23,274 nt of DNA. Origin: a virus. Taxonomy: Duplodnaviria; Heunggongvirae; Uroviricota; Caudoviricetes. The stretch's first letter is position 1. Every line of letters starts with the position of its first letter. A model generated the notes under the pieces. That model was not told the DNA's origin and did not search any database. It saw only the letters and a program-made list of their open reading frames with translations. The stretch lies in IMG/VR virus record IMGVR_UViG_2571042372_000002. One strand, 5' to 3'. The translations under genes and the position numbers were made by a program. Below are positions 19,842-21,902 of this stretch, piece after piece.

Positions 19842-21902
19842 ATGGCAGTACAGATTTCAGGCGTGCTGAAAGACGGTGCAGGAAAACCGATACAGAACTG
19901 CACCATTCAGCTCAAAGCAAAACGTAACAGCACCACGGTTGTGGTGAACACGGTGGCCTCAGAAAATCCGGATGAAGCCGGACGTTACAGCATGGATGTC
20001 GAGTATGGCCAGTACAGCGTTATCCTGCTGGTTGAAGGTTTTCCGCCTTCACATGCCGGGGCCATCACCGTGTATGAGGATTCTAAGCCGGGGACATTGA
20101 ATGATTTTCTGGGCGCTGCAACAGAAGATGATGTTCGTCCGGAGGCACTGTATCGTTTTGAAAAGATGGTGGAAGAGGTGGCACGCAACGCTGAAGCCGC
20201 CTCTCAGAGCGCAGCGGCAGCAAAGAAATCAGAAACAGCAGCGGCATCGTCCAGGAATGCGGCGAAAACATCAGAGACGAATGCAGGTAACAGCGCGAAA
20301 GCGGCAGCTTCTTCAAAAACAGCCGCACAAAACGCAGCAACAGCGGCAGAACGTTCAGAGACAAATGCCCGTGCGTCAGAAGAAGCCTCCGCAGACAGTG
20401 AAGAGGCTTCCCGCCGTAATGCAGAGTCAGCCGCTGAAAATGCCGGAGTCGCCACCACAAAAGCGCGGGAGGCCGCAGCAGACGCAACAAAGGCCGGGCA
20501 GAAAAAGGATGAGGCTCTGTCGGCAGCGACACGGGCTGAAAAGGCGGCAGACCGCGCAGAAGTCGCAGCGGAAGTGACTGCAGAGCCCTATGCGAATATA
20601 GTGCCGCCGCTGCCTGATGTGTGGATACCGTTTAACGATTCACTGGATATGATTGCGGGTTTTTCTCCGGGCTATAAAAAAATAGCTATTGGTGACGATG
20701 TGGTTCAGGTCGCCAGTGATAAACAGGTTAATTTCAGTCGCGCATCAACGGCAACATATATCAACAAATCTGGCGAACTGAAAACGGCGGAAATTAATGA
20801 GCCGCGATTTGAGTGTGATGGCCTGCTTATTGAGGGACAAAGAACGAACTACATGCTCAATTCGGAAAGTCCAGCCAGCTGGGGGAAGTCATCAAACATG
20901 GATGTGCCCGAAACCGGGACAGATAGTTTTGGTTTTACTTATGGAAAGTTTGTCTGCAACGATTCTCTGGTTGGGCAAACTTCGGCTATTAATATGGCAT
21001 CAATTGCTGCAACAAAGTCAGTTGATGTCTCAGGCGATAACAAGTACGTGACAACCTCATGCCGTTTTAAAACAGAACGACAGGTAAGGTTACGTATACG
21101 GTTTGATAAGTATGATGGTAGTGCAACAACTTTTCTTGGCGATGCGTACATTGATACGCAAACGCTTGAAATTAATATGACAGGTGGGGCTGCCGGCAGA
21201 ATTACGGCACGAGTCAGGAAGGATAAGACCACAGGCTGGATTTTTGCAGAGGCAACGATTCAGGCAATTGATGGTGAGTTAAAAATAGGCTCTCAGATAC
21301 AGTATTCTCCTGAGCGGGGTGGGGCAACAGTATCTGGTGACTATATTTATCTTGCCACCCCACAAGTAGAGAATGGGCCGTGTGTATCATCATTTATTAT
21401 TTCAGGAGGCAGCGCAACGACAAGAGCCAGTGATTTGGTTAGTATCCCCACCAGAAATAATCTTTATAAGTTACCATTTACTTTTTTACTTGAGATTCAT
21501 AAAAACTGGGATATTGCACCAAACGCCGCACCCCGCGTGTGGGATATAGCAGCAGCCAATACCGGGCAATCAGCAATTGCAGCAATCAACAGAGGTAGTG
21601 GTAAGTTATATATGAGTCTGTCAAACCCTTCAGGCTTGTATGTTAATAGCGCAGCGACAGATGTATTTGCAGAGAAAACCACATTTGGATGTATTGCAAA
21701 AGCTGATGGTCACTTTCATGTGGTGACAAATGGTAAAGCGGTTAATGAAGTTTATTGTGAATATAATGGTGTGACCGCTGATAAAAATATCCGATTTGGA
21801 GGGCAGACGAATACTGGAGAACGACATCTGTTTGGCCATATTCGCAATTTCCGCATATGGCATAAAGAATTAAATGACAGGCAATTAAAAGAGGTCGTAT
21901 GA
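19842..21902 (+). CDS. stf: side tail fibre protein (lambda Stf-like N-terminus, Ala/Ser/Glu-rich shaft, divergent AT-rich C-terminal putative receptor-binding domain)
   Basis: GGAG SD and ATG at 19842. N-terminal ~90 aa MAVQISGVLKDGAGKPIQNCTIQLKAKRNSTTVVVNTV...GRYSMDVEYGQYSVIL are near-identical to lambda Stf as recalled. Residues about 115-245 are a low-complexity A/S/E/T-rich repeat. The C-terminal ~440 aa is encoded by visibly AT-rich DNA and is unlike lambda Stf. Confidence 0.85.
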   Translation: MAVQISGVLKDGAGKPIQNCTIQLKAKRNSTTVVVNTVASENPDEAGRYSMDVEYGQYSVILLVEGFPPSHAGAITVYEDSKPGTLNDFLGAATEDDVRPEALYRFEKMVEEVARNAEAASQSAAAAKKSETAAASSRNAAKTSETNAGNSAKAAASSKTAAQNAATAAERSETNARASEEASADSEEASRRNAESAAENAGVATTKAREAAADATKAGQKKDEALSAATRAEKAADRAEVAAEVTAEPYANIVPPLPDVWIPFNDSLDMIAGFSPGYKKIAIGDDVVQVASDKQVNFSRASTATYINKSGELKTAEINEPRFECDGLLIEGQRTNYMLNSESPASWGKSSNMDVPETGTDSFGFTYGKFVCNDSLVGQTSAINMASIAATKSVDVSGDNKYVTTSCRFKTERQVRLRIRFDKYDGSATTFLGDAYIDTQTLEINMTGGAAGRITARVRKDKTTGWIFAEATIQAIDGELKIGSQIQYSPERGGATVSGDYIYLATPQVENGPCVSSFIISGGSATTRASDLVSIPTRNNLYKLPFTFLLEIHKNWDIAPNAAPRVWDIAAANTGQSAIAAINRGSGKLYMSLSNPSGLYVNSAATDVFAEKTTFGCIAKADGHFHVVTNGKAVNEVYCEYNGVTADKNIRFGGQTNTGERHLFGHIRNFRIWHKELNDRQLKEVV

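What the first reader, a model, noticed from the sequence alone, without database searches (positions are those of the whole stretch)
20580..21902. Mosaic side tail fibre: lambda-like N-terminus fused to an AT-rich, unrelated distal module
Nucleotide composition drops sharply from about 20600, with long A/T-rich stretches in 21060-21900, while the upstream two-thirds of the window is GC-rich. The encoded C-terminal ~440 aa (…GHIRNFRIWHKELNDRQLKEVV) does not resemble the lambda Stf distal region. This looks like a horizontally exchanged receptor-binding domain, possibly a lectin/jelly-roll-like fold, that would set host range.
Basis: partly seen in the sequence, partly recalled or inferred. Interest (0 to 1): 0.55.

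Follow-up and report, generated by a model that had tools for sequence, protein, structure and literature searches.

The report
Phage 21 mosaic side tail fibre
This is the side tail fibre gene of a phage 21-type lambdoid prophage: a lambda-like attachment end joined to an AT-rich, lectin-like tip that many unrelated coliphages share.

Summary
ORF 19836-21902 (688 aa; more likely ATG 19842, 686 aa) has a lambda Stf N-terminus and an alanine-rich rod. From about aa 250 it carries a distal module with no similarity to lambda's distal Stf. That module has GC 0.436 and GC3 0.367, against 0.543 for the window, and is the AT-richest part of the window.

The module travels with a 92-aa acidic protein (21899-22177) in lambdoid, P2-like, T1-like, T5-like and rV5-like phages. 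A 58-nt relic of the lambda tfa chaperone gene remains at 22502-22559. A nested hypervariable cassette (21547-22178) covers the fibre tip plus orf92.

The stf-orf97 DNA (19836-22500) is 100% identical to Escherichia phage 21, where the gene is annotated "side tail fiber". At least 80% of the 19836-23274 stretch (stf to sitD) is found in 437 of 5,426 complete E. coli genomes. The most likely function, by inference only, is reversible glycan binding that speeds adsorption and shapes host range. Low novelty, modest interest.

The parts
19802..19821 (+). Terminator-like hairpin between J and stf
   Evidence: Pattern scan. Annotated as a terminator in phage 21, OL657228.
19836..21902 (+). stf, side tail fibre gene. 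The intact ORF is 688 aa from GTG 19836. The phage 21 annotators start it at ATG 19842, giving 686 aa.
   Evidence: ORF list. 100% identical DNA to phage 21 CDS UMO75437.1 'side tail fiber'. PHROG 1419, 1102 bits.
19842..20192 (+). Lambda-type N-terminal anchor domain (aa 3-119)
   Evidence: PF08400, 230 bits. E = 1.4e-49 to PDB 9e7m, the lambda Stf N-terminus. 85% DNA identity to lambda 19633-19999.
20193..20582 (+). Alanine/serine-rich rod (aa 120-249), presumed coiled coil. Its length varies between alleles.
   Evidence: 53% identity (low complexity) to lambda Stf aa 239-345. Relatives of 792 aa have a longer version. GC 0.587, GC3 0.446.
20583..20729 (+). Neck of the distal module (aa 250-298), with the conserved motif P-x-P-D-V-W-x-P-x-N-D-S-L. 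The left recombination joint lies at 20578-20606.
   Evidence: Family consensus. DNA similarity to the P2-like, T1-like and other lambdoid copies starts at 20578-20606.
20730..21470 (+). Distal domain D1 (aa 299-545): beta-sandwich homologous to the RcGTA head-spike fibre Rcc01080
21471..21899 (+). Distal domain D2 (aa 546-688): LamG / ConA-like tip
   Evidence: Pfam Laminin_G_3, aa 562-683, 23.9-25 bits against a cut-off of 27.6. 29 of 55 relatives match it. Lowest GC of the gene: 0.408, GC3 0.308.
21547..22178 (+). Inner hypervariable cassette: the distal ~118 aa of D2 plus the whole of orf92
   Evidence: DNA similarity to three independent relatives (L066, L037, phage tunus) ends at exactly 21546. 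With L066 it resumes at 22179. Where D1 stays at 86-92% identity, D2 is ~42% and orf92 49-64%.
21899..22177 (+). orf92: acidic 92-aa soluble protein whose start overlaps the stf stop (ATGA). It is a conserved partner of the distal module.
22190..22483 (+). orf97: small protein, hydrophobic overall (GRAVY 0.53), annotated in phage 21 as a two-transmembrane membrane protein. It belongs to the conserved right flank of the cassette.
   Evidence: PHROG 1443. Annotated 'putative membrane protein, 2 TMDs' in phage 21. GRAVY 0.53. 81-100% identical in relatives even where D2 and orf92 diverge.
22502..22559 (+). 58-nt relic of the 3' end of a lambda-type tfa (tail fibre assembly chaperone) gene
   Evidence: 93% identical to lambda 22437-22494, inside tfa. 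It reads ATEEETPLLEARKKYRVLL, against lambda ATKEETSLLEAWKKYRVLL. In relatives L020 and L033 the relic runs on to the tfa stop.
22575..23267 (-). sitD (3' part of the sitABCD moron), which abuts and truncates the tfa relic. It is context, not part of the fibre.
   Evidence: PF00950. Annotated SitD in phage 21 and in E. coli genomes. Similarity to sit-less relatives ends at 22559.

Best explanation
The gene is the intact side tail fibre (Stf) of a phage 21-type lambdoid prophage, built from modules with separate histories. The parts are:
- a lambda-type N-terminal domain, which plugs the fibre into the tail tip;
- an alanine-rich rod;
- a distal head of two unrelated beta-sandwich, ConA-like lectin domains, D1 (RcGTA head-spike-fibre type) and D2 (LamG type).

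The head arrived as a cassette together with a cognate 92-aa acidic protein (orf92) and orf97. This cassette replaced the ancestral gp37-like distal Stf and most of the tfa chaperone gene. Within it, the tip of D2 plus orf92 forms a smaller unit that is swapped again among E. coli phages.

The head most likely binds a surface polysaccharide (O-antigen, LPS core or capsule) reversibly. That would concentrate virions on the cell before J engages its porin, and so tune host range.

What is shown: the mosaic structure, the joints, the homologies, the predicted fold, and the synteny of orf92. What is inferred: trimer architecture, glycan binding, the effect on adsorption and host range, and orf92 acting as an assembly or tip partner.
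For: N-terminus. PF08400, 230 bits. E = 1.4e-49 to the solved lambda Stf N-terminus 9e7m. 85% DNA identity to lambda up to window 20191.

Distal part. It is unrelated to lambda orf-314.

D1. It reaches the NCBIfam GTA_spike_fiber cut-off and matches the Rcc01080 sequence at E = 1.4e-9. That protein mediates binding of RcGTA to capsular polysaccharide (PMC7296036, PMC10218006, PMC5026251).

Cassette mobility. Window 20601-22485 matches a P2-like prophage at 87.6%, and there it is again followed by a truncated Caudo_TAP gene. A tfa relic lies at 22502-22559.

Spread. 2,890 cluster representatives carry the module (E <= 0.001). In the best hits listed it sits at the C-terminus of proteins from about 390 to about 1,500 aa, with one 4,244-aa multi-copy exception, on at least five anchor types. 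It occurs in 228 phage records.

Composition. The module's low GC (0.42-0.46) travels with it whatever the host phage's GC (0.45-0.61).

orf92. It is conserved directly downstream in temperate and in strictly virulent phages.

General model. Lateral fibres of siphoviruses bind O-antigen as a non-essential primary receptor (PMC8594841, PMC11990801).
Against: - No experiment on this protein or on any close relative was found, so the receptor is unknown.
- Only a monomer could be modelled, so how three heads are arranged is unknown. The RcGTA homologue is present as a single chain per spike (PMC7296036).
- No solved structure exists for the D1 family: 6TB9 resolves only residues 2-10 of Rcc01080.
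- Laminin_G_3 is below Pfam's gathering score for this protein.
- The co-variation of orf92 with D2 could reflect physical linkage only.
- Part of the GC decline is the general lambda left-arm gradient: it starts in J at ~18500.
Confidence: 0.72

Rival explanations
1. The distal module is an enzyme (a glycanase or lyase with a ConA-like fold) that degrades O-antigen or capsule, rather than a passive lectin.
Confidence: 0.08
2. The head binds an outer-membrane protein (as proposed for Ur-lambda Stf and OmpC) rather than a glycan.
For: Lectin-fold domains can bind proteins; the matching botulinum neurotoxin chains include complexes with the SV2 protein. Ur-lambda Stf has been suggested to bind OmpC (PMC11990801).
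Against: The only experimentally studied homologue binds capsular polysaccharide (PMC10218006). The module sits on lateral fibres of T1-, T5- and rV5-like phages, for which glycan primary receptors are the accepted model (PMC8594841). The extreme allelic diversity of the D2 tip (about 42% identity between alleles while D1 stays about 90%) parallels O-antigen diversity better than porin diversity.
Confidence: 0.15
3. The AT-richness is only the ordinary lambda-type left-to-centre GC gradient and says nothing about foreign origin.
For: GC already falls at ~18500 inside J. In lambda itself GC declines from J (0.59) to orf-314 (0.52) and tfa (0.49).
Against: The module is clearly lower (0.436; GC3 0.367) than lambda's equivalent segment. 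It keeps GC 0.42-0.46 in P2-like, lambdoid and rV5-like contexts whose upstream DNA ranges from 0.45 to 0.61. GC rebounds to 0.53 in orf97, directly downstream. Exchange is shown independently by sequence joints.
Confidence: 0.1
4. The gene is a decaying prophage remnant with no function.
For: RefSeq annotates it as a pseudogene fragment plus a separate CDS in E. coli ATCC 25922. IS insertions truncate it in some phages.
Against: The ORF is intact here. It is 100% identical to the gene of the viable phage 21 (PMC9119081). The 90% cluster has 2,232 member sequences. The RefSeq split is an annotation artefact on identical DNA.
Confidence: 0.04

Closest known systems
Escherichia phage 21 side tail fibre (UMO75437.1, OL657228; Feiss et al. 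2022, PMC9119081), and the same gene in ev017, PhiR63_2 and B2-phylogroup E. coli prophages next to sitABCD
   Same: 100% identical DNA over stf, orf92 and orf97, with the same neighbours, including sitD.
   Different: Nothing in sequence. The rest of the window is 97.6% identical to phage 21. The published announcement does not discuss the fibre's distal module.
Bacteriophage lambda Stf/Tfa (Ur-lambda side tail fibres)
   Same: Same N-terminal anchor (74% identity over aa 3-160). Same alanine-rich rod type. Same genomic position after J. A relic of tfa is present.
   Different: The distal gp37-like domain is absent and replaced by two lectin-like domains. There is no functional Tfa; orf92 and orf97 stand in its place. 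There is no lom gene between J and stf.
Rhodobacter capsulatus gene transfer agent head-spike fibre Rcc01080 (GhsB; NCBIfam NF048003)
   Same: D1 (aa 299-545) is homologous (E = 1.4e-9; 55 bits against a cut-off of 36). The likely role is reversible polysaccharide binding that aids adsorption.
   Different: The RcGTA protein is 325 aa, sits on capsid vertices as a single chain through a Leu-Gly repeat N-terminus, and lacks the LamG-like D2 (PMC7296036). Here the domain is at the end of a tail fibre.
Lateral tail fibres of T1-like (tunus), T5-like (EC100) and rV5-like (FFH2) coliphages, and the P2-type H fibre variants carrying the same module
   Same: Same distal module (35-88% identity), followed by an orf92 homologue with overlapping stop and start.
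   Different: Different N-terminal anchors. Several also encode a second fibre with a Peptidase_S74 domain after orf92, which is absent here.

Membership tests
Lambda-type side tail fibre (Stf) | N-terminal tail-attachment domain PF08400 | tested here: met
   230 bits against a cut-off of 26.6, aa 3-133. E = 1.4e-49 to the solved lambda Stf N-terminus.
Lambda-type side tail fibre (Stf) | Position directly downstream of J in a lambdoid late operon | tested here: met
   J is at 16301-19783 with all J domains. stf starts at 19836/19842.
Lambda-type side tail fibre (Stf) | gp37-like distal domain, as in lambda orf-314 | tested here: not met
   BLASTP best E = 1.1.
Lambda-type side tail fibre (Stf) | Downstream Tfa (Caudo_TAP) assembly chaperone | tested here: not met
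   Only a 58-nt relic at 22502-22559. There is no Pfam hit for orf92 or orf97.
GTA head-spike fibre domain (NCBIfam NF048003) | Score above the curated cut-off | tested here: met
   55.3 bits against 36, aa 331-531, covering profile positions 1-181 of 182.
GTA head-spike fibre domain (NCBIfam NF048003) | Binding to capsular or extracellular polysaccharide | not testable with these tools
   Shown only for RcGTA Rcc01080 (PMC10218006).
ConA-like lectin / Laminin_G_3 (PF13385) | Pfam gathering score | tested here: inconclusive
   23.9-25 bits against 27.6 for this protein. 29 of 55 aligned relatives match, best E = 1.9e-11.
ConA-like lectin / Laminin_G_3 (PF13385) | Beta-sandwich jelly-roll fold | tested here: met
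Fibres with a C-terminal intramolecular chaperone (Peptidase_S74) | PF13884 domain at the C-terminus | tested here: not met
   No hit in Stf. The domain occurs only in a separate second fibre gene of relatives.
PHROG 1419 (tail protein) | Profile match over the distal module | tested here: met
   1102.6 bits; aa 196-688 match profile positions 299-793 of 793.

The most novel reading that the evidence does not exclude
orf92 (PHROG 1361) may be an undescribed, widespread accessory of lectin-tipped tail fibres. It could be a dedicated folding chaperone that replaces Tfa, or a small tip or adaptor subunit. In either case it would co-evolve with the LamG-like tip as a two-gene specificity cassette (21547-22178) that phages of five different tail architectures exchange.
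Probability: 0.35. Interest if true: 0.4.

Novelty: already known. Interest (0 to 1): 0.22.

Why it matters
As a discovery it matters little. Tail-fibre mosaicism is a textbook phenomenon, and this exact gene is deposited and annotated in phage 21 and in hundreds of E. coli genomes.

It has some practical value. The joints at about 20600, 21546, 22178 and 22485-22559 are natural splice points for engineering lambda-type particles with new specificities.

The work also flags three things:
- a fibre head family that is common in coliphages and has no solved structure or known receptor;
- its conserved 92-aa partner;
- a systematic RefSeq mis-annotation that splits the intact gene.

Tried and rejected
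- Internal duplication of the two lectin domains. hhalign of the D1 profile against the D2 profile found nothing (probability 0.1%), so they are not a recent duplication.
- Tandem DNA repeats in the alanine-rich rod: none found.
- Promoter and terminator scan of 19700-22700: counts no higher than in shuffled sequence, apart from the hairpin after J.
- orf92 and orf97 as defence genes: no PADLOC hits. Neither has a Pfam or NCBIfam hit.
- Sequence search for orf92 relatives: only E. coli/Shigella proteins with at least 54% identity were returned. Remoter homologues were found only through synteny plus an HMM.
- The apparent recombination joint at window ~21769 in Lambda_4C10, 1W and 3W: it is an IS insertion, not a module boundary.
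- Literature search for phage 21 stf or sit: no paper found. The DT57C LtfA/LtfB papers concern a different, S74-type module.
- Relatives with 32% and 28% module identity (P0161, P0250): no orf92 homologue downstream. The partnership therefore holds for the enterobacterial subfamily, not for the whole family.

Full report
**1. What the window is**

The window is the late (head and tail) region of a phage 21-type lambdoid prophage, ending in sitD. Over its whole length it is 97.6-97.8% identical to Escherichia phage 21, ev017 and PhiR57_1. The stretch 19836-22500 is 100% identical to phage 21 (OL657228). There the gene is annotated "side tail fiber", followed by a hypothetical protein, a putative membrane protein and sitDCBA. 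At least 80% of the 3.4-kb stretch 19836-23274 is found in 437 of 5,426 complete E. coli genomes, including ATCC 25922, NU14 and clone D i14. The phage 21 genome announcement (PMC9119081) says nothing specific about this fibre.

**2. Checking the observation**

- ORF 19836-21902 encodes 688 aa and ends in the quoted C-terminus. The phage 21 annotators start it at ATG 19842, giving 686 aa.
- In 200-nt windows, GC is 0.61 at 20400-20599, 0.45 at 20600-20799 and 0.38-0.42 at 21600-22100.
- The distal segment 20583-21899 has GC 0.436 and GC3 0.367. The window average is 0.543, and the 5' part of J has GC3 0.72.
- Only 2.2% of all 1320-nt windows are this AT-rich, and all of them overlap the segment.
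- The profile is not a single step. GC already falls at ~18500 inside J. The alanine-rich part of stf is GC-rich only because of GCN codons (GC3 0.446).
- Control: lambda's own distal Stf (orf-314) has GC 0.519 and tfa 0.491, so part of the decline is the usual lambda gradient. The module is clearly lower, and it keeps GC 0.42-0.46 in four other phage contexts whose upstream DNA ranges from 0.45 to 0.61. The low GC therefore belongs to the module.

**3. Anatomy of the protein**

- aa 3-133 match PF08400 (230 bits). aa 3-96 match the solved lambda Stf N-terminus 9e7m (E = 1.4e-49).
- DNA identity to lambda stf is 85% and stops at window 20191.
- aa 120-249 are an Ala/Ser-rich rod that resembles lambda's own repeat region only at low-complexity level. 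Relatives of 792 aa carry a longer version.
- From about aa 250 the protein has no similarity to lambda orf-314 (best E = 1.1).
- NCBIfam NF048003 ("GTA_spike_fiber") matches aa 331-531 above its cut-off (55.3 against 36 bits). phmmer aligns aa 299-545 to the Rhodobacter capsulatus gene transfer agent head-spike fibre Rcc01080 (E = 1.4e-9).
- Pfam Laminin_G_3 matches aa 562-683 just below threshold, but matches 29 of 55 aligned relatives.
- An AlphaFold2 model of aa 250-688, built on 55 diverse relatives, has pLDDT 93.8 and pTM 0.90 and is all-beta.
- I infer that the 180-190-residue matches are to D1 and the 130-160-residue LamG and pentraxin matches are to D2, because D2 is only about 143 residues long.
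- The two domains show no profile similarity to each other.
- No solved structure covers D1: in 6TB9 only residues 2-10 of Rcc01080 are resolved (PMC7296036).

**4. The exchanged unit is a cassette, and it is nested**

- In a P2-like prophage, the H-type fibre (PF12571 N-terminus) carries the same module. It is followed by 92-aa and 97-aa ORFs and then a truncated Caudo_TAP gene. Its DNA matches window 20601-22485 at 87.6%.
- In the window, a 58-nt relic of the 3' end of lambda tfa lies at 22502-22559, 93% identical to lambda 22437-22494. In relatives the relic continues to the natural tfa stop. Here it is cut at 22559/22560 by the sit DNA.
- So an ancestral stf-tfa pair was overwritten between about aa 250 of Stf and the last part of tfa.
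- Inside the module, DNA similarity to three independent relatives (two lambdoid classes and the T1-like phage tunus) ends at exactly 21546. With L066 it resumes at 22179, just after the orf92 stop.
- Accordingly D1 stays 86-92% identical, while D2 falls to about 42% and orf92 to 49-64%. orf97 stays 88-100% identical in the lambdoid relatives and 81% in the P2-like prophage.
- The tip of D2 plus orf92 (21547-22178) is therefore the hypervariable unit. It is also the AT-richest stretch.

**5. orf92**

- A profile built from 24 family members finds a homologue directly after the module, with overlapping stop and start in the loci whose gene coordinates were inspected. This holds in lambdoid prophages (every IMG/VR locus that holds DNA beyond the fibre gene) and P2-like prophages. 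It also holds in a Tail_spike_N fibre and the rV5-like phage FFH2, the T5-like phage EC100 and the T1-like phage tunus, with E from 1e-41 to 4e-18.
- Its conservation in strictly virulent phages argues for a role in the virion or its assembly, not for a lysogenic-conversion gene.
- Two relatives with 28-32% module identity lack it.
- Its identity tracks D2 rather than D1, but adjacency alone could explain that.

**6. Spread of the module**

2,890 cluster representatives match at E <= 0.001 and 461 at E <= 1e-10. In the best hits listed the module is at the C-terminus of proteins from about 390 to about 1,500 aa, with one 4,244-aa multi-copy exception. It is joined to PF08400, PF12571, PF03406, Tail_spike_N or unassigned N-termini. 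It occurs in 228 phage records, including Salmonella, Aeromonas, Synechococcus and Rhodobacter RcapMu phages. Hynes et al. had already noted that rcc01080 homologues are scattered among phages as "tail" or "carbohydrate-binding" proteins (PMC5026251).

**7. Likely mechanism**

Shown: the module structure, the joints, the homologies, the predicted fold and the synteny.

Inferred:
- The fibre is a trimer anchored like lambda Stf.
- Its lectin-like heads bind a surface polysaccharide reversibly, which speeds adsorption and helps the phage cross the O-antigen or capsule barrier before J engages its terminal receptor.
- The D2 tip sets specificity.

These inferences rest on three things. RcGTA head fibres bind capsule (PMC7296036, PMC10218006). 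The accepted model is that lateral fibres of T1-, T5- and lambda-like siphoviruses use glycans as non-essential primary receptors (PMC8594841, PMC11990801). Lectin-like fibre heads have been documented (PMC12143355). Engineered lambda Stf chimeras show that the N-terminal part tolerates foreign distal modules (PMC11338833).

Rivals are listed separately with confidences: enzyme 0.08, protein receptor 0.15, composition without exchange 0.10, dead remnant 0.04.

**8. Verdict**

The object is an already sequenced and annotated gene of a classical phage, and a standard example of tail-fibre modular exchange (Haggård-Ljungquist 1992 and Montag 1989, as cited in PMC3945230). The modest new points are the nested cassette boundaries, the tfa relic, the link to the RcGTA head-spike fibre together with a LamG tip, and the conserved orf92 partner. 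Interest is low to modest.

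Noticed in passing
window 22560-23274 (sitD at 22575-23267, minus strand): The sitABCD iron/manganese transporter moron begins directly inside the tfa relic. Relatives without sit keep the relic through to the tfa stop and a terminator. Phage 21 itself carries sitABCD.
   Followed up: partly
window 19836-21902; L002 (E. coli ATCC 25922) 3007-5067: RefSeq/PGAP annotates this intact ORF as a pseudogene fragment ('prophage tail fiber N-terminal domain', missing its C-terminus) plus a separate 417-aa 'phage head spike fiber domain-containing protein'. The DNA is nevertheless 100% identical to the window and has no frameshift. 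This is an annotation artefact, probably repeated in many genomes.
   Followed up: partly
window 18500-19783 (3' part of J): J is 94.5% identical to lambda J only up to 18797, then 73% over 18967-19330, and not detectably similar after that. GC drops at ~18500. The receptor-binding C-terminus of J is therefore a separate mosaic piece.
   Followed up: no
window 19784-19835: There is no lom gene between J and stf, unlike lambda. Only a 52-nt spacer with a terminator-like hairpin (19802-19821) is present.
   Followed up: no
L066 5608-6648; L093 (tunus) 4111-4848; L092 (EC100) 4087-5817: In many relatives a second fibre gene lies just after orf92. It has a conserved N-terminus (MAT.TVIP.DI.KLK) and a Peptidase_S74 intramolecular-chaperone domain, which suggests branched fibres. 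It is absent from the window.
   Followed up: partly
window ~21769; L004 (Lambda_4C10) 4935-7433: In Lambda_4C10, 4A7, 1W, 3W and D2, a three-ORF mobile element (IS66-like by its gene layout; family not checked) interrupts stf near its 3' end, removing the last ~43 aa of the LamG-like tip.
   Followed up: partly
window 22190-22483: orf97 is a small hydrophobic protein (PHROG 1443), annotated in phage 21 as a two-transmembrane membrane protein. It is 81-100% conserved, usually next to the tfa relic, in lambdoid and P2-like prophages, even where the fibre tip differs. Its function is unknown, with no Pfam, NCBIfam or PADLOC hit.
   Followed up: partly
window 20327-20340 (minus strand): The phage 21 record annotates a CII-binding-site pattern (ttgynnnnnnttgy) inside stf. 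This is a pattern match only.
   Followed up: no
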